Sequence record: OY726582 | Source of the DNA: Escherichia phage vB_Eco_NicPhage | Reading direction: 5' to 3' (one strand) | DNA: 64,000 bases | Shown here: one piece after another, positions 19,681 to 51,723 of the stretch | How the letters are laid out: every line of letters begins with the position of its first letter | How positions within the stretch are numbered: the stretch's first letter is position 1 | Made by a program: the position numbers and the translations under genes | The notes under the pieces: model-generated | Seen by the model: only the letters and a program-made list of their open reading frames with translations | Databases searched by the model: none | Told to the model about the DNA's origin: nothing

Positions 19681-20025
19681 TTATTTTGGCATATCGTCAA
19701 TTTGCTCTCGACGCCGACGCCATAGATTAATCGCTTCATAGGCACATTCTGCGTTTGGTATATGACGGCAATAATATAATGATTCGCGTTTCTGGAACCG
19801 ATGTTGCAACGGGATTTCGTTTAAAAGGTCTTTACGGTCAAAGTATTCAAAACTAGTTAACCCAGAACGGTTTTTAAGAAACTTCCAATGTCCGAATTCA
19901 TTTTGAAAATAAACATAATCAGCATGCTGATACAGCGAATTAATTAACCTATCGGAAATAACTGTTTCACGTTCGTTAAAATAAAACGTTAAGTCATGAA
20001 CTACCAGATAAATATTGCCTTTCAT
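19681..20025 (-). CDS. hypothetical protein between tRNA genes and putative stable-RNA region
   Basis: Track ORF 19681..20073 would overlap tRNA-Arg; ATG at 20025 (MKGNIYLVV) with SD GAGGAAAA chosen. Confidence 0.45.
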   Translation of the reverse strand: MKGNIYLVVHDLTFYFNERETVISDRLINSLYQHADYVYFQNEFGHWKFLKNRSGLTSFEYFDRKDLLNEIPLQHRFQKRESLYYCRHIPNAECAYEAINLWRRRREQIDDMPK

Positions 20026-20043
20026 ATTTTCCTCACTTGAAGT

Positions 20044-20120
<77 letters not shown>

Positions 20121-20123
20121 GAT

Positions 20124-20200
20124 TGGTGACCCAGACCAGATTCGAACTGGTAACCTTTCCCTTATGAGGGGACTGCTGCTAACCGTTGAGCTACAGGGCC
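20124..20200 (-). tRNA. tRNA with CAU anticodon (Ile2-type or Met)
   Basis: 77-nt cloverleaf: GGCCCTG acceptor, anticodon loop CUCAUAA, T-arm ACCAG-TTCGAAT-CTGGT, encoded CCA; 5' half resembles E. coli ileX as recalled. Confidence 0.75.
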
Positions 20201-20279
20201 TAAATAACTTTCTATTATGAAAGGCACTTTAGAGCACCTTTGGTAATAGAGGGTATGAATTAATAATAACACATAATTC

Positions 20280-20795
20280 TTAAAGCAAATCAATCATTTT
20301 AACAGTTGGCAAAACGATTTCTTCTTCAATATAAGCAAATTCAACACATTCAACTACACGCAAGAAATCATAATCATAATATTCAGAAGCATGACCAAGA
20401 ATACCAATGAGACCTTCTGATACCAAATATCCATTCTCATGGAACAGGTCGAATACACGCGATTCGTCTTCTTCAGATTTATTACCGAGGTCGACTTCAA
20501 TATCAAAGACCTTTTTAATGAATTCTGGATAAAGCTGGTCTGAGAACAGTCCTTCAACCAAGTATTCATAGATTAAAAGCGAACAATCACTGAATAGTGT
20601 ATTACCACAGTAACGTTCAGCTTTAGTGCTGGAATGACGGCTCTTAAATTTCTTTAAGAGATATTTAAACTGTTGGAGCTCATGCTCTTCTACACCAAAT
20701 AATGTTTTGGTTTTATAGTTGTCGCCGTCATTTTCCCAAGTAGTGACATCAATTACGTAACCTTTAGGAATTGTACTGCCTAAACAAATATTCAT
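20280..20795 (-). CDS. hypothetical acidic protein
   Basis: 171 aa ORF. Confidence 0.5.
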   Translation of the reverse strand: MNICLGSTIPKGYVIDVTTWENDGDNYKTKTLFGVEEHELQQFKYLLKKFKSRHSSTKAERYCGNTLFSDCSLLIYEYLVEGLFSDQLYPEFIKKVFDIEVDLGNKSEEDESRVFDLFHENGYLVSEGLIGILGHASEYYDYDFLRVVECVEFAYIEEEIVLPTVKMIDLL

Positions 20796-20799
20796 TTAC

Positions 20800-21090
20800 T
20801 CACCGTACCATATTAATGTAATTATATTCAATGCAACGTAATTTCAAAGGATTCTTGAAAATATCATATTCAAGAGGGCCTTTTTCTGTTTCAACAAAGA
20901 AATCGAAGTTAACGCTGTTAAATTTACGGTCTTCCCAGAGTAATTTAACTTGCGAAGACGAACGGTCGATATAAACCTTTTCAACCACGAAGTTGGTCAG
21001 AATACCATAGTCATCGACTAGTGCTTTAGCTGCAGCTCGGTCGCTTTCATATCCGTTCTCGACAGATTTTACTTTAGCATAAAGAATCAT
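20800..21090 (-). CDS. hypothetical protein
   Basis: 96 aa ORF. Confidence 0.45.
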   Translation of the reverse strand: MILYAKVKSVENGYESDRAAAKALVDDYGILTNFVVEKVYIDRSSSQVKLLWEDRKFNSVNFDFFVETEKGPLEYDIFKNPLKLRCIEYNYINMVR

Positions 21091-21458
21091 GAATGTTCCA
21101 CCATTTCAAAGGTACGAGCATCAACAATATGATACCAGTCAAAATTTTCTTCCGCGTTTTTATAAATTTCGCGAAGAGCTTCAACAGTTTTTCCTGTAGC
21201 AACAAGGTCGTCAATACCACCAAGAGGATAACAGTCATAACCAGCAAACAGAAGGAAATTAATAGTTTCTGTAGGTTCTGTAGGTTCTGGATGCAGAACA
21301 CCATTATCATCTACTACTTCAAAGAATGTGTAAGAAGGAGTACAAGTTTTAATCCAGGCCCATGCTTGAGCTGCTGAATCAAACGGATTACGGAATAAAC
21401 GACAATCCGGGTCTTTAGAAGGATTTGCTTCAAAATCCGCATATATGTGATATTTCAT
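21087..21458 (-). CDS. hypothetical protein (contains PEPTEPTE repeat)
   Basis: Track ORF 21087..21476; ATG (MKYHIY) with SD AAGGTGAG. Confidence 0.5.
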   Translation of the reverse strand: MKYHIYADFEANPSKDPDCRLFRNPFDSAAQAWAWIKTCTPSYTFFEVVDDNGVLHPEPTEPTETINFLLFAGYDCYPLGGIDDLVATGKTVEALREIYKNAEENFDWYHIVDARTFEMVEHS

Positions 21459-21459
21459 T

Positions 21460-21645
21460 TTACTCACCTTTTGCAATTTTATCCATAACGATAGCGATTA
21501 AGCCGATTAGAAATGCTACTACCAATGAGATAGAGTTTTCAGTTGTTGTCAGTAGTCCGCAAATGAATCCTACAAACATCGAAAAACTAAAAGCCATTGA
21601 AGCAATTACTACAGCAACATTACGAATCAGTTCAGCGCGTTTCAT
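21460..21645 (-). CDS. small membrane protein
   Basis: Track ORF 21460..21666; ATG (MKRAELIR) with SD GGAGAAAT; two hydrophobic helices. Confidence 0.45.
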   Translation of the reverse strand: MKRAELIRNVAVVIASMAFSFSMFVGFICGLLTTTENSISLVVAFLIGLIAIVMDKIAKGE

Positions 21646-21670
21646 TTTATTTCTCCATTTACTCATTTGA

Positions 21671-21712
21671 TTTGATAGGACTACTATAACATAGTCCTAT
21701 CATCATGTAAAC
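21671..21712 (-). promoter_or_regulatory. early promoter cassette
   Basis: GTTTAC ... dyad GATAGGACTACTATAACATAGTCCTATC upstream of 21460..21645. Confidence 0.55.
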
Positions 21713-21714
21713 TA

Positions 21715-21978
21715 TTAAATACCAGCTTCGCGTTTAACATAATCGACGTAAGCTTGGATAGCTTTCTTGCTGGTAATTTTTACCTGGCCTCGTCCGTTGC
21801 CTTCTTTAGAGTTTTTCTTAACAACTACATTACCATCTTTAACACCCCATACATGGACATAAGTACCGATGTTTCGGTCGTAGAACATTGCATGGTCGTT
21901 GTTGTAAGAGAATGATTCGTAGTTCTCTGACAGAGTAGAAGATTGAGATTCAGCGATAAATTCTTTATAGGTTTTCAT
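21715..21978 (-). CDS. internal protein (IP family, leader MKTYKEFIAE)
   Basis: 87 aa; IP leader; own promoter cassette upstream. Confidence 0.6.
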   Translation of the reverse strand: MKTYKEFIAESQSSTLSENYESFSYNNDHAMFYDRNIGTYVHVWGVKDGNVVVKKNSKEGNGRGQVKITSKKAIQAYVDYVKREAGI

Positions 21979-22001: not shown

Positions 22002-22042
22002 TTTGATAGGACTACTATAACATAGTCCTATCAGCATGTAAA
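22002..22042 (-). promoter_or_regulatory. early promoter cassette upstream of IP gene
   Basis: Identical 28-bp dyad and GTTTAC as at 21671. Confidence 0.55.
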
Positions 22043-22046
22043 CTAC

Positions 22047-22334
22047 TTACAGAAGAGTTTTTGCAATAATTTTAAGCTGAGCTACAGAAATATGCTTAGC
22101 TTTAAACAGTGCGGTCTCTTCGGCCGGAGAGATAACAACAGTAGCGCCATCTTTCTTAGCAGACCATCCATCCCCTAAGTAAACAGTACCTTTTACTTCT
22201 TCACCATCAACCAGACTAATCATCGGTTTACCCTCACGTCCTTTATTTGCTTTAATAACTTCGGAAGTAAGGGTTGCTTCGGTCAGAGTAGAAACGTTAG
22301 CAACAGGTGATATAAATTCTTTATAGGTTTTCAT
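22047..22334 (-). CDS. internal protein, IPI-position (leader MKTYKEFI)
   Basis: 95 aa; IP leader; immediately upstream of 57B as ipI is in T4. Confidence 0.6.
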   Translation of the reverse strand: MKTYKEFISPVANVSTLTEATLTSEVIKANKGREGKPMISLVDGEEVKGTVYLGDGWSAKKDGATVVISPAEETALFKAKHISVAQLKIIAKTLL

Positions 22335-22357: not shown

Positions 22358-22400
22358 TTGATAGGATGATAGTAACACACCATCGTCCTTATGTAAACTG
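22358..22400 (-). promoter_or_regulatory. early promoter cassette upstream of ipI-like gene
   Basis: GTTTAC ... imperfect dyad AGGATGAT...ATCGTCCT. Confidence 0.5.
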
Positions 22401-22411
22401 TTTTGTGAAAA

Positions 22412-23097
<686 letters not shown>

Positions 23098-23101
23098 TTT
23101 A

Positions 23102-23836
23102 TTACCTTAAGATTGTTTCAATTTTAGAATAAAGCTCTTCTAAAGAGCCGTCGTTTGTAATAACTAAATCGCCTTCTTCAATAGGCAACCCAGCTTCTGT
23201 AATATGTTTATCGGTGGATTCCGTACCAGAGCGAACCACATGAATAACTGTAGCACCCATCGCTCTAGCGGTTTCCATTTCATGGACTTGGCGTGTATCG
23301 GTCACAACATAGTAATCGAAATCACTTCCAATATAATCCATATAGTTTAATGCAAAAAGTTTAACCCAATACATACGGTCAAATAAATTAACGACAACAT
23401 CCGTACCGAGGGCTTGCATAAGACGGCGGATTGACCATGTGTCGTTGATATTATTTATAGCTTCACGCAGGGCTTCATATGGTTTAATATCTAGATACGA
23501 ATATCCACCTTCTAACGATGATAATACTTTAACATTATTAATCGGTAAATATTGACTTTGCAAATAAATTAGCGCTTCTTCCAATAATTCAATAACATCC
23601 AACTTATTGAGATTTAATGGTGTTTCACGGTCGTATCCAATGCCTTCAAAGTATTCGTATTTCAACTCTGTGAATACATCAGGATTTTCAGCATGCCTAC
23701 GTCCCCAGGCTATTGCTAGAGCGTCTTTAATTGGATATGCTAATTGGTATTTTACGGATTTAAAGTTTGAATTGATGTAATCAGCAGTGGTGTCTTTACC
23801 ACTACGTTTGATGCCACTTAAAAAGATTAGCTCCAT
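23102..23836 (-). CDS. 1: deoxynucleoside monophosphate kinase gp1
   Basis: 244 aa; MELIFLSGIKRSGKDTTADYI... nearly identical to T4 gp1 N-terminus as recalled. Confidence 0.9.
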   Translation of the reverse strand: MELIFLSGIKRSGKDTTADYINSNFKSVKYQLAYPIKDALAIAWGRRHAENPDVFTELKYEYFEGIGYDRETPLNLNKLDVIELLEEALIYLQSQYLPINNVKVLSSLEGGYSYLDIKPYEALREAINNINDTWSIRRLMQALGTDVVVNLFDRMYWVKLFALNYMDYIGSDFDYYVVTDTRQVHEMETARAMGATVIHVVRSGTESTDKHITEAGLPIEEGDLVITNDGSLEELYSKIETILR

Positions 23837-23889: not shown

Positions 23890-24480
23890 TTAACGCAAGG
23901 AAGGGTGTCTAGAAATGGATTTAGATTCGACTGCTTGACGTGGTTGTTGAGATACAATGACTTCACCATCCTTTTCTATCGTCATGTACGCATAGTGAAT
24001 AGTTGCTACGCACGTAACGGCAGGGTCAGAGTCTTCGGTGTAACTAAATTCAATTTCACTCAAATCAGAAATCCATGGTTTATAGAAATTCGCCGTCAAA
24101 ACTACTTCAGTCTTATTGTTGTTTAAAATGTGCAAAGTAACAAACTCAGGACCATCGGAGTGGGCCGTATTATGTCCGGTTATATAGTTATTAGTGCTGA
24201 GCATCCATTTATACATGTTCATCCAGGACGTCATGTCTTCATCAACTATAAATCGTACAACAAAAGGGTCGTATTCAAATGTGGTGCCTGCACGCATTGC
24301 ACGTCCTAACCCCATCGTGCCTGTCACAGTTTCAACAACAGGAATTCTCACACCTGGCAATGGAGCCGTTTGGGCATTGAGCACAAAACCTGAAGTTCGT
24401 GTACTATCTGGGATATCCACAACAAAGTTTGTTATATTTGTTTGGTTAAAAATCTGTCTCGTTGGACGAGTCATAAGCAC
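23890..24480 (-). CDS. 3: tail completion / sheath stabiliser gp3
   Basis: Assigned by synteny 1-3-2-4-53; 196 aa in track, true start uncertain (T4 gp3 is about 176 aa). Confidence 0.6.
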   Translation of the reverse strand: MLMTRPTRQIFNQTNITNFVVDIPDSTRTSGFVLNAQTAPLPGVRIPVVETVTGTMGLGRAMRAGTTFEYDPFVVRFIVDEDMTSWMNMYKWMLSTNNYITGHNTAHSDGPEFVTLHILNNNKTEVVLTANFYKPWISDLSEIEFSYTEDSDPAVTCVATIHYAYMTIEKDGEVIVSQQPRQAVESKSISRHPSLR

Positions 24481-43942: not shown

Positions 43943-44894
43943 ATGATGTTTGGTTATTTTTACAACTCGTCGTTCAGGCGATATATCACAATGATGGGCG
44001 ATTTGTTTTCAAATATCCAAGTTAACCGTCAATTGTCTACAGGCAATAAATTAATTAGAGTTCCTATTACGTATGCATCTAAAGAGCACTTTATGATGAA
44101 ACTTAATAAATGGACCTCTATAAACTCACAAGAAGATGTGGCTAAAGTCGAAACTATTCTACCACGTATAAATCTCCAAATGGTGGATTTCGTTTATAAC
44201 CCAACGTTTAAAACGAATATATTGAATAACTCTCTTTTGAGTAAATCGACTAAGGATATTGTAGACCAATACAACCCATCACCAATTAAAATGATTTTTG
44301 AACTGAGCATCTTTACTCGTTATGAAGATGATATGTTCCAAATCGTTGAGCAAATTATTCCATATTTTCAGCCGCATTTTAATACGACTATGATTGAGCA
44401 ATATGGGCAGGATATTCCATTTGAAAGGGATATTAAAGTCGTATGGATGGCAGCAGCAATGGATGAACAAATAGACGGTGATAATTTATCTCGTCGACGT
44501 TTAGAGTGGTCATTAACATTTGAAGTAAATGGATGGATGTATCCTCCGGTAGGCGCAGCTGAAGGCCTTATTAAAACGACTTATCTTGATTTTCATGCTA
44601 AACGGTGATAATTTATCTCGTCGACGTTTAGAGTGGTCATTAACATTTGAAGTAAATGGATGGATGTATCCTCCGGTAGGCGCAGCTGAAGGCCTTATTA
44701 AAACGACTTATCTTGATTTTCATGCTAATGAACGAGACCTTCAAACAGCCGCCAGTGTTTTTGAATCAGTTGATACAGAAATTAAACCGAGAGACGTTGA
44801 AGCACAAGATTGGAATGGTGAAGTTGAACAAACTTATACTCATGATATTCCAATCCCGTCTCCACCAACCCCTCCTGGTCCTAGAAAACAATAA
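43943..44894 (+). pseudogene. 15: gene 15 (tail sheath stabiliser / tail terminator) split by a 127-bp tandem duplication; frames 43943..44608 and 44586..44894
   Basis: The peptide GDNLSRRRLEWSLTFEVNGWMYPPVGAAEGLIKTTYLDFHA occurs at the end of one track ORF and the start of the next in a different frame; removing one copy restores a single ORF of about 274 aa (T4 gp15 about 272 aa). Confidence 0.75.
44475..44728 (+). repeat. perfect tandem direct duplication, 2 x 127 bp, inside gene 15
   Basis: 44475..44601 is identical to 44602..44728 by direct reading; unit length is not a multiple of 3. Confidence 0.9.
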
Positions 44895-49918: not shown

Positions 49919-51490
49919 ATGAAATTTAATATCTTAAGTTTGTTTGCTCCATGGGCAAAAATGGACGAACGTGATTACAAAGACCAAGAAAAAGAAAATT
50001 TAGAATCTATCACCGCACCAAAATTAGACGACGGCGCTAAAGAATACGAAGTATCTGAAAATGAAGCACAGCAAACATATAATGCTATGTTTCAGAGAAT
50101 GTTCGGTAGTCAAGAACCAGGGCTCAAATCAACCCGTGAATTAATCGATACGTATCGAAATTTGATGACGAACTATGAAGTGGATAATGCAGTCTCTGAA
50201 ATAGTTTCCGATGCTATCGTGTATGAAGATGATACAGAAGTCGTTTCTATAAATTTAGACAACACAAAATTTAGTCCAAATATCAAATCAATGATGTTGG
50301 ATGAATTTAACGAAGTGTTAAATCATTTATCTTTCCAACGTAAAGGTTCAGATCATTTTAGACGTTGGTATGTAGATTCTCGAATTTTCTTCCATAAAAT
50401 TATTGACCCTAAACGCCCTAAAGAAGGTATTAAAGAGCTTCGTCGTTTAGATCCACGTCAAGTTCAATATGTCCGTGAAGTTATTACAACCACTGAAGCC
50501 GGTGTTAAAATAGTCAAGGGTTATAAAGAATATTTCATTTATGACACATCACACGAATCTTACGCTTGTGATGGTCGCATATATGAAGCTGGCACAAAAA
50601 TAAAAATCCCTAAAGCCGCGATTGTTTATGCCCATTCTGGTTTAGTTGATTGTTGTGGTAAAAATATCATTGGTTATTTGCATCGGGCTATTAAGCCGGC
50701 GAACCAATTAAAACTTCTTGAAGATGCCGTCGTAATTTATCGTATTACTCGTGCTCCTGATCGTCGTGTATGGTACGTTGATACAGGTAATATGCCTTCA
50801 AGAAAAGCAGCAGAACATATGCAACATGTTATGAATACGATGAAAAACCGTATTGCATATGATGCTACTACAGGCAAGATTAAAAACCAGCAGCATATTA
50901 TGTCGATGACCGAAGATTATTGGTTACAACGACGTGATGGTAAAGCAGTAACAGAAGTTGATACATTACCAGGTGCAGATAATACCGGAAATATGGAAGA
51001 TGTACGTTGGTTCCGTAATGCGCTTTATATGGCTTTACGTATTCCTATTACCCGTATTCCAAGTGACCAAGGTGGTATACAGTTTGATGCTGGTACTTCT
51101 ATTACACGAGATGAATTATCATTTGGTAAATTTATTCGTGAGCTGCAACATAAATTTGAAGAGATATTCCTAGACCCGCTTAAAACTAATTTAATTCTTA
51201 AAGGAATTATTACAGAAGATGAGTGGAATGATGAAATAAATAATATTAAGATAAAATTTCATCGGGATAGTTATTTCTCGGAATTAAAGGATGCTGAGAT
51301 TCTGGAGCGTCGCATTAATATGCTTCAGATGGCCGAACCATTTATTGGTAAATATATTTCTCACAGAACAGCTATGAAAGATATTCTTCAGATGTCTGAC
51401 GAGGAAATTGAACAAGAGGCTAAGCAAATTGAAGAAGAGTCGAAAGAGGCTCGTTTCCAAGACCCCGACCAAGAACAAGAGGATTTTTAA
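49919..51490 (+). CDS. 20: portal vertex protein gp20
   Basis: 523 aa; late promoter upstream. Confidence 0.95.
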
Positions 51491-51723
51491 TGGACGATTT
51501 AATTCAAGCTATTAAATCAAACGACCTCGTTGCTACTCGAAAGTTTTTTGAAAGTGCAATGGCAGAAAAAACGGTTCGTTTGATTGAAGCACGCAAAGCA
51601 GAAATCGCGTCTCAATTTTTGATTGAAGGCGAAGAACCTGAAGAAGAAGAAAAGAAAGCTTCGGAAGACGACGCTGATGAAGGCGATGACGACGAAGACG
51701 AAGATGATGAGGACGATGAATAA
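51490..51723 (+). CDS. 67: prohead core protein gp67
   Basis: 77 aa with poly-acidic C-terminus; synteny. Confidence 0.85.

What the first reader, a model, noticed from the sequence alone, without database searches (positions are those of the whole stretch)
21267..21290. Short in-frame tandem repeat (9-bp unit, about 2.6 copies) inside ORF 21087..21458
Plus strand TTCTGTAGG-TTCTGTAGG-TTCTGG encodes PTEPTEP on the minus strand. This is a microsatellite-like repeat prone to slippage that could vary the linker length of this protein between isolates.
Basis: seen in the sequence. Interest (0 to 1): 0.2.

Follow-up and report, generated by a model that had tools for sequence, protein, structure and literature searches.

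The report
Ordinary 9-base duplication in protein hinge
The repeat is real: a single 9-base tandem duplication adds three amino acids (Pro-Thr-Glu) to the flexible hinge of a small two-domain phage protein of unknown function, and it looks like a rare, inherited and probably harmless length variant, not a fast-mutating switch.

Summary
The window is an RB69-like T-even phage (Mosigvirus). ORF 21087..21458 (-) is the homologue of T4/RB69 gene tRNA.3 (phrog_1411, PF26894), and its function is unknown.

The repeat is present as described. On the coding strand it reads CAGAACCTA-CAGAACCTA-CAGAAACTA and encodes PEPTEPTET (residues 57-65).

As a bare pattern it is not beyond chance: 0.57 arrays of this TRF score are expected per shuffled window. 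Comparison with relatives shows a real event. Of 133 related phage records, 130 are exactly 9 nt shorter (PEPTET, 120 aa). Only AV110, WFK and WFL6982 share the longer form, and no allele with more copies was found.

The four carriers share an identical haplotype tract around the repeat and one diagnostic SNP. This points to one slippage duplication, seeded by a pre-existing 8/9 repeat, inherited and then moved by recombination.

The AlphaFold model, the family alignment and about 4,380 clusters dominated by stand-alone C-domain relatives all place the repeat in the length-variable hinge between two domains. The hinge grows from 13 to 16 residues, inside the family range of 12-18. The most likely reading is a neutral indel polymorphism of low interest.

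Noticed in passing: a perfect 127-bp tandem duplication disrupts gene 15 (44475..44728). It looks like an untrimmed assembly overlap.

The parts
21263..21289 (-). 27-nt tandem array of three 9-nt units, coding strand CAGAACCTA CAGAACCTA CAGAAACTA. It lies within codons 57-65, which encode PEPTEPTET.
21281..21289 (-). The 9 nt (one unit; the register is arbitrary within 21272..21289) that are present here and in AV110, WFK and WFL6982 but absent from 130 of 133 related phage records. This is the tandem duplication itself.
21087..21458 (-). CDS of the tRNA.3 homologue (123 aa + stop), function unknown. The protein is identical to Escherichia phage vB_Eco_NicPhage CAJ1523334.1.
21309..21458 (-). 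N-terminal domain, residues 1-50 (predicted beta-beta-alpha-beta).
   Evidence: (DSSP on the model)
21261..21308 (-). Inter-domain hinge, residues 51-66 (DNGVLHPEPTEPTETI). Coil in the model, lowest pLDDT blocks, and the length-variable segment of the family (12-18 aa).
21090..21260 (-). C-terminal domain, residues 67-123 (NFLLFAG...). This is the conserved core that also exists as stand-alone proteins of about 60-90 aa.
21327..21327 (-). SNP (A on the coding strand) found only in the four duplication carriers among the 18 sequences compared. It marks the shared haplotype.
21460..21666 (-). tRNA.4 homologue (phrog_1692, small membrane protein), the upstream gene of the same tightly packed block. 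Its stop lies 1 nt before the tRNA.3 ATG.
20800..21090 (-). tRNA.2 homologue (phrog_2023). Its ATG overlaps the tRNA.3 stop (ATGA).
21683..21711 (-). Promoter-like site TTTACA-17-TATAGT (10/12, with TG) just upstream of tRNA.4. It is a candidate promoter for the tRNA.4-tRNA.3-tRNA.2 block. This is a consensus match only.

Best explanation
A single in-frame 9-bp tandem duplication arose by replication slippage. The ancestral Mosigvirus tRNA.3 gene already carried an imperfect direct repeat, CAGAACCTA-CAGAAACTA (8 of 9 bases). Misalignment of the nascent strand by one 9-nt period re-copied one unit, giving CAGAACCTA x2 + CAGAAACTA and turning PEPTET into PEPTEPTET. The insertion lies in the unstructured, Pro-rich hinge that joins the N-terminal domain (residues 1-50) to the widely distributed C-terminal domain (residues 67-123). 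It lengthens that hinge from 13 to 16 residues, which is within the 12-18 residues seen in other family members, so it is most likely selectively neutral or nearly so. The allele arose once, is rare, and has since been carried by descent and moved onto different flanking backgrounds by the homologous recombination typical of T-even phages. Shown: the indel, its exact unit, its distribution, the shared haplotype and the hinge location (the last from a predicted model and alignments). Inferred: the slippage mechanism, the neutrality and the single origin.
For: The sequence and reading frame are established. Alignment of 18 Mosigvirus sequences shows an exact 9-nt gap in all but window, AV110, WFK and WFL6982.

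Census: of 133 phage records matching a 90-nt probe, 3 are >=99% identical and 130 fall at 80-90%. Every one of the 58 listed rows of the short form spans exactly 9 nt less, and none falls in the 90-99% band where a +9 allele would be expected. Cluster members read are 119, 120, 122 and 123 aa; the 123-aa Bas46 entry is only an earlier annotated start.

Polarity: more distant family members carry the short form (RB69, JS09, ZQ3, P0003), and the two units are identical at the DNA level.

Single origin: window and WFK are identical over 318 nt spanning the repeat (21558..21241). Window and AV110 are identical from 21445 to the end of the compared block. One SNP at 21327 is exclusive to carriers.

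Hinge: the AlphaFold2 model has mean pLDDT 87.7 but pTM 0.48. It shows strands and helices at 3-50 and 68-122, coil at 51-67, and its lowest pLDDT blocks at 61-80. Hinge length across 26 full-length relatives is 12-18 aa. In the profile search, 4,380 clusters score E<=0.001, and most of the listed hits are 60-90-aa proteins that start at profile position about 63. In BFVD, single-domain hits fit at 2-3 A rmsd while full-length relatives fit at 7.5-11 A.
Against: Neutrality is inferred, not measured. The function of tRNA.3 is unknown, so an effect of hinge length cannot be excluded. The hinge assignment rests on a predicted structure and alignments, not on experiment. Per-residue pLDDT was not available, only 10-residue blocks. 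Only 40 of 190 cluster members and 60 of 133 census rows were seen individually; the rest are known only by identity band. A nearby 3-nt deletion (Tyr74) occurs both with and without the duplication (WFK against G2285). This requires either recombination within about 40 nt or a recurrent mutation at one of the two sites.
Confidence: 0.83

Rival explanations
1. Hypermutable (contingency-type) simple-sequence repeat: the 9-nt tract gains and loses units frequently, so that linker length varies rapidly among and within phage populations.
For: A length polymorphism does exist at exactly this repeat. The four combinations of the PTE duplication and the nearby Tyr74 deletion all occur, which recurrent mutation could produce. 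In unrelated metagenomic genes the same PEPTE-coding unit reaches many copies (L022, L028).
Against: Only two alleles were seen in 133 phage records and in the cluster members read. The tract is very short: two perfect units plus one imperfect unit. All carriers share one haplotype and a private SNP. No tRNA.3-context hit for the duplicated allele was found in IMG/VR or JGI metagenomes, while the short allele was found three times.
Confidence: 0.05
2. Adaptive linker-length variant: the extra PTE changes the spacing or orientation of the two domains and alters the protein's (unknown) activity, for example against a host factor. The allele would then be spreading by recombination because it is favoured.
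For: The allele sits on recombinant backgrounds: WFK is window-like upstream and phage55-like downstream. The gene lies in a region rich in host-interaction and counter-defence genes: Acb1/57B at 22412..22867 and IpI at 22047..22334.
Against: The allele is rare (3 of 133). The new hinge length (16) is simply typical of the wider family. Recombination mosaics are the norm across this whole block. No function is known for the protein.
Confidence: 0.08
3. Sequencing or assembly artefact in this record, with no biological duplication.
For: The same window carries what looks like an assembly artefact elsewhere: a perfect 127-bp duplication in gene 15.
Against: The identical 9-nt duplication is present in three independently deposited genomes from other laboratories and countries: AV110 from Denmark, and WFK and WFL6982 from Germany. 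The exact protein is also recorded in an E. coli TPA assembly entry.
Confidence: 0.01
4. The long form is ancestral and the 120-aa forms are deletion derivatives.
For: Slippage can delete as easily as duplicate. The indel alone has no polarity.
Against: The short form is found in all the deeper branches (RB69, JS09, ZQ3, the IMG/VR contigs, and the 56%-identical P0003). The long form is confined to closely related haplotypes. The two units are still identical at the DNA level.
Confidence: 0.03

Closest known systems
T4 / RB69 gene tRNA.3 (T4 'uncharacterized 16.0 kDa protein in segB-ipI intergenic region', Y07C; phrog_1411; Pfam PF26894 as precomputed in the protein collection)
   Same: There is a full-length match to phrog_1411 (E 3.9e-45). 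Identity to the T4 protein is 36.8% over residues 2-123 (E 1e-15). The gene holds the same position, between tRNA.4 and tRNA.2, downstream of ipI and upstream of the tRNA genes.
   Different: This allele has a 3-residue longer hinge than RB69 and nearly all Mosigvirus copies. The T4-type proteins have a different, non-repetitive hinge of 16-18 aa and an extra loop of about 7 aa in the C-domain. No function is known for any member.
Simple-sequence contingency loci (phase-variable short tandem repeats of bacteria and some phages; from general knowledge)
   Same: It is a short tandem repeat inside a coding region, and the mutational route is strand slippage.
   Different: The tract is very short (2 perfect + 1 imperfect units). 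The unit is a multiple of three, so there is no on/off frameshift. Only two alleles exist and they are tied to one haplotype. There is no evidence of recurrent change.
Pro/Thr/Glu-rich inter-domain linkers that vary in length by in-frame repeat indels (for example the PT-type linkers of multidomain secreted enzymes; from general knowledge)
   Same: It is a Pro-rich, low-complexity spacer between two independently folding domains. Length is changed by duplication of a short unit, and different lengths are tolerated across homologues.
   Different: It is much shorter (13 to 16 residues), sits in a small cytoplasmic phage protein, and carries only one extra unit.

Membership tests
T-even phage tRNA.3 family (phrog_1411 / PF26894) | Significant full-length sequence similarity to family members | tested here: met
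   phrog_1411 scores E 3.9e-45 over residues 1-123. tblastn finds RB69-type proteins at 86-99% identity and the T4 protein at 36.8%, E 1e-15. All 33 profile hits carry PF26894. The local Pfam copy returned no family.
T-even phage tRNA.3 family (phrog_1411 / PF26894) | Conserved gene order ipI - (variable slot) - tRNA.4 - tRNA.3 - tRNA.2 - tRNA genes | tested here: met
   Window ORFs and tRNAs match the annotated T4, RB69, PhAPEC2 and JS09 regions.
In-frame tandem duplication by replication slippage | The inserted bases are an exact copy of the adjacent bases, head to tail | tested here: met
   CAGAACCTA appears twice with 100% identity, and relatives lack exactly one unit.
In-frame tandem duplication by replication slippage | A pre-existing direct repeat or microhomology in the ancestral allele at the same period | tested here: met
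   The short allele reads CAGAACCTA-CAGAAACTA (8/9 identical units) in RB69, phage55, PhAPEC2 and others.
In-frame tandem duplication by replication slippage | Direct observation of slippage (de novo events in culture or in reads) | not testable with these tools
   No read data or passage experiments are available.
Hypermutable simple-sequence contingency locus | Many copy-number alleles among close relatives | tested here: not met
   Only two states were seen in 133 phage records, and nothing fell in the identity band expected for a +9 allele. Cluster member lengths of 119-123 aa are explained by this one indel, one 3-nt deletion and one start-site annotation.
Hypermutable simple-sequence contingency locus | Independent recurrence (same allele on unrelated haplotypes) | tested here: not met
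   Carriers share an identical tract of 318 nt or more around the repeat and a private SNP at 21327.
Hypermutable simple-sequence contingency locus | Copy-number change switches expression (frameshift or promoter spacing) | tested here: not met
   The unit is 9 nt, in frame and internal to the CDS.
Flexible inter-domain linker | Lies between two independently folding domains | tested here: met
   The model has two alpha/beta units separated by coil at 51-67, with high pLDDT but pTM 0.48. Thousands of stand-alone C-domain proteins start at this boundary, and one stand-alone N-domain hit was found. Single-domain structural matches fit at 2-3 A while full-length matches fit at 7.5-11 A. This is prediction-based, not experimental.
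Flexible inter-domain linker | Length and sequence poorly conserved among homologues | tested here: met
   The segment is 12-18 residues with unrelated sequences in 26 full-length relatives.

The most novel reading that the evidence does not exclude
The hinge length of tRNA.3 may tune the activity of a two-domain early accessory protein, possibly a host-takeover or counter-defence factor given its neighbours Acb1 and IpI. In that case the +PTE allele would be a selected functional variant spreading through Mosigvirus populations by recombination. A weaker version: the repeat is a mildly slippage-prone site that lets the phage sample hinge lengths.
Probability: 0.05. Interest if true: 0.3.

Novelty: new member of a known kind. 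Interest (0 to 1): 0.07.

Why it matters
It matters very little by itself. It is a textbook in-frame slippage duplication in a tolerant hinge, and it serves as a minor haplotype marker for a small group of RB69-like phages (NicPhage, AV110, WFK, WFL6982). Two by-products are more useful. First, tRNA.3 is shown to be a fusion of two small domains, and the C-terminal one is a very widespread stand-alone phage domain of unknown function (about 4,380 clusters at 50% identity). This frames any future functional work on the gene. Second, the record appears to carry an untrimmed 127-bp assembly overlap that falsely splits the essential gene 15.

Tried and rejected
- **Literature.** Searches for tRNA.3/tRNA.2/tRNA.4, Y07C, 'segB-ipI intergenic' and PF26894 found nothing relevant, because the 'tRNA.3' hits are sentence-end citations. 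The T4 genome review was not held. NicPhage is only mentioned in passing in two papers, which I did not read.
- **Wider copy-number census.** The duplicated 24-mer gave 1 IMG/VR hit and 17 metagenome hits, but all are unrelated PEPTE-repeat genes and none has tRNA.3 context.
- **Bas46 as a fifth carrier.** I considered this and rejected it: its 123 aa come from an upstream annotated start (MSKMKYH...), and its hinge is the short form.
- **Internal duplication of the two domains.** hhalign of the N-terminal half against the C-terminal half gives an in-register 46-column alignment, but only P 0.0018 and probability 15%. This is suggestive and not established.

Full report
**1. Observation**

Tandem Repeats Finder extends the array to 21263..21289: period 9, 3.0 copies, 94% matches, score 47. 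On the coding (minus) strand this is CAGAACCTA-CAGAACCTA-CAGAAACTA.

The array lies in frame in ORF 21087..21458 and encodes P57-E-P-T-E-P-T-E-T65. The ORF boundaries are right. The ATG at 21458 follows AAGGTGAG, and the same 372-nt CDS is annotated in the closest deposited relative.

As a bare pattern the array is unremarkable. In 100 dinucleotide-preserving shuffles of the window, 0.57 arrays with TRF score >=47 are expected, and 46% of shuffles have at least one.

**2. Context**

The window is a Mosigvirus, an RB69-like T-even phage. The neighbouring genes on the minus strand are:

- the homologue of T4 gene 3, a tail completion protein (23890..24480)
- a dNMP kinase with the same position and size as the gene so annotated in AV110 (gp1 of T4; 23102..23836)
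- gp57A (22867..23097)
- gp57B/Acb1 (22412..22867)
- IpI (22047..22334)
- a small variable ORF (21715..21978)
- tRNA.4 (21460..21666), the ORF in question, and tRNA.2 (20800..21090)
- an RB69ORF151-like ORF (20280..20795)
- tRNA-Met and tRNA-Arg

These assignments come and from the annotated T4, RB69, PhAPEC2 and JS09 regions.

The ORF is the homologue of T4/RB69 gene tRNA.3. It matches phrog_1411 at E 3.9e-45 over its full length and is 36.8% identical to the T4 protein. All collection homologues carry PF26894. Its exact sequence is on record as a protein of Escherichia phage vB_Eco_NicPhage.

The three genes are tightly packed. There is 1 nt between the tRNA.4 stop and the tRNA.3 start, and an ATGA overlap joins tRNA.3 to tRNA.2. 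A promoter-like TTTACA-17-TATAGT sits just upstream, at 21711..21683 on the minus strand.

**3. The repeat is a real 9-nt duplication**

I aligned the tRNA.4-tRNA.2 block of 17 related phage sequences with the window. Fourteen of them lack exactly nine bases here and read CAT C-CAGAACCTA-CAGAAACTA (PEPTET). AV110, WFK and WFL6982 share the window's three-unit form.

A 90-nt probe across the repeat matched 133 phage records. Three were >=99% identical and 130 fell at 80-90%. All 58 listed rows of that second group span exactly 9 nt less than the query. Nothing fell in the 90-99% band where an allele with one more unit would be expected.

The members read from the 190-member 90% protein cluster are 119, 120, 122 and 123 aa. 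The 122- and 119-aa forms carry an unrelated 3-nt deletion that removes Tyr74. The 123-aa Bas46 entry only has an earlier annotated start and has the short hinge.

Scans of IMG/VR and JGI metagenomes for the duplicated 24-mer returned only unrelated PEPTE-repeat genes. The short allele in its tRNA.3 context was found in three IMG/VR contigs.

**4. Polarity and number of events**

The short form is present in the deeper lineages: RB69, JS09, ZQ3, and the 56%-identical P0003. The long form occurs only in closely related haplotypes, and its two full units are still identical at the DNA level. The long form is therefore derived.

The ancestral allele already contains two 9-nt units identical at 8 of 9 positions. 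This is the classical substrate for slipped-strand mispairing by one period. The slippage mechanism is an inference.

The four carriers share the surrounding haplotype:

- Window and WFK/WFL6982 are identical over 318 nt spanning the repeat (21558..21241).
- Window and AV110 are identical from 21445 to the end of the compared block.
- One SNP (21327) is exclusive to the carriers among the 18 sequences.

Outside those tracts the genomes are mosaics. WFK becomes phage55-like downstream. Over 5 kb the closest relative is G53, which lacks the duplication.

The simplest reading is one event, inherited and then shuffled by recombination. There is one caveat. The nearby Tyr74 deletion occurs both with the duplication (WFK) and without it (G2285). 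This requires either a crossover within about 40 nt or a recurrent mutation at one of the two sites.

**5. Where it sits in the protein**

An AlphaFold2 model built on 33 family sequences has mean pLDDT 87.7 but pTM only 0.48. It shows two compact alpha/beta units, with strands and helices at 3-50 and at 68-122. They are joined by coil at 51-67, and the lowest-confidence 10-residue blocks are 61-70 and 71-80.

In the family alignment this segment is the least conserved and the most length-variable. It is 12-18 residues in 26 full-length relatives. The short Mosigvirus form (13) is at the low end, and the duplicated form (16) is near the mode of 16-17.

A profile search of 1.84 billion cluster representatives found 4,380 clusters at E<=0.001. 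Most of the 150 listed are proteins of 60-90 aa whose residue 2 aligns to profile position about 63, which is directly after the hinge. One 68-aa protein matches only the N-terminal half.

BFVD structure matches agree. Single-domain phage proteins fit at 2-3 A rmsd, while full-length relatives fit at 7.5-11 A, as expected for rigid domains on a flexible joint.

**6. Function of the protein**

The neighbours are host-interaction genes (Acb1, IpI). A role as a small accessory or host-takeover protein is plausible, but it is only a guess from context.

**7. Verdict**

The feature is a genuine but ordinary in-frame slippage duplication in a tolerant inter-domain hinge. It is a rare, apparently single-origin allele shared by a handful of RB69-like phages. 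There is no evidence for ongoing instability or for a functional consequence.

Rivals considered:

- hypermutable contingency repeat (0.05)
- adaptive hinge-length variant (0.08)
- ancestral long form (0.03)
- artefact (0.01)

Interest is low.

**8. Seen in passing**

A perfect 127-bp x 2 tandem duplication at 44475..44728 splits gene 15 (tail sheath stabiliser) into 221-aa and 102-aa ORFs. All twelve listed relatives match in two pieces and are exactly 127 nt shorter. From general knowledge, 127 is the largest default SPAdes k-mer. This looks like an untrimmed circular-contig overlap left inside the record after rotation, not biology.

Noticed in passing
window 44475..44728: A perfect 127-bp tandem duplication (2.0 copies, 100% identity) lies inside gene 15 (tail sheath stabiliser/completion). 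It breaks the gene into ORFs 43943..44608 (221 aa) and 44586..44894 (102 aa). All twelve listed relatives (of 512 matching phage records) are exactly 127 nt shorter (674 against 801 nt, matched in two pieces). 127 is the largest default SPAdes k-mer, so this looks like an untrimmed circular-assembly overlap left internal after the genome was rotated, that is, an artefact that falsely disrupts an essential gene.
   Followed up: partly
window 21236..21241 (codon 74 of tRNA.3); L005, L007, L008: A second small indel polymorphism lies about 40 nt from the repeat. A 3-nt deletion (GGTTATGAC to GGTGAC) removes Tyr74 in WFK/WFL6982, which carry the PTE duplication, and in G2285, which does not and has a different haplotype. 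All four indel combinations exist, which implies either a crossover within about 40 nt or a recurrent mutation.
   Followed up: partly
window 21087..21458 (protein level): tRNA.3 is a fusion of two small alpha/beta domains. The C-terminal one (NFLLFAG...W[WY][HQ]IV) is a very widespread stand-alone phage protein of about 60-90 aa: 4,380 clusters at 50% identity, including Staphylococcus, Klebsiella and Erwinia phages, all uncharacterised. The N- and C-terminal halves also align weakly to each other (hhalign P 0.0018, 46 columns), which hints at an old internal duplication.
   Followed up: partly
window 21715..21978 and 19900..20300; loci L004-L018: The slot between ipI and tRNA.4 is variable. 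Here it holds an 87-aa ORF (phrog_13302). Some relatives have a 309-312-nt gene there, annotated as internal head protein 7 in Shf125875, and others have nothing (AV110, WFK, PhAPEC2, JS09). The tRNA complement also differs: Arg(tct)+Met here and in RB69, Asn+Met in WFK, G2285, Mizar and AV114, and three tRNAs in PhAPEC2.
   Followed up: no
window 22042..22014, 21711..21683, 22397..22369 (minus strand): There are three promoter-like sites with TTTACA, a 17-nt spacer and a TG extension. Two have an identical TATAGT -10 hexamer. Each sits in the intergenic gap just upstream of a gene (the 87-aa ORF, tRNA.4 and ipI). The total count in the region is not above shuffles, but their placement resembles T-even early promoters.
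   Followed up: no
window 51667..51719: A 21-nt repeat (2.5 copies, 78% matches) encodes the Asp/Glu-rich C-terminal tail (…[18 protein letters not shown]) of a 77-aa ORF at 51490..51723 in the head-gene region. It appears to be an ordinary acidic low-complexity tail.
   Followed up: no
loci L022, L023, L027, L028, L034, L035 (metagenome contigs): The same CCTACAGAA (PTE) unit forms much longer arrays (4 to 7 or more units) in unrelated metagenomic genes. This shows that the unit can expand in other contexts. None of these genes is related to tRNA.3.
   Followed up: no
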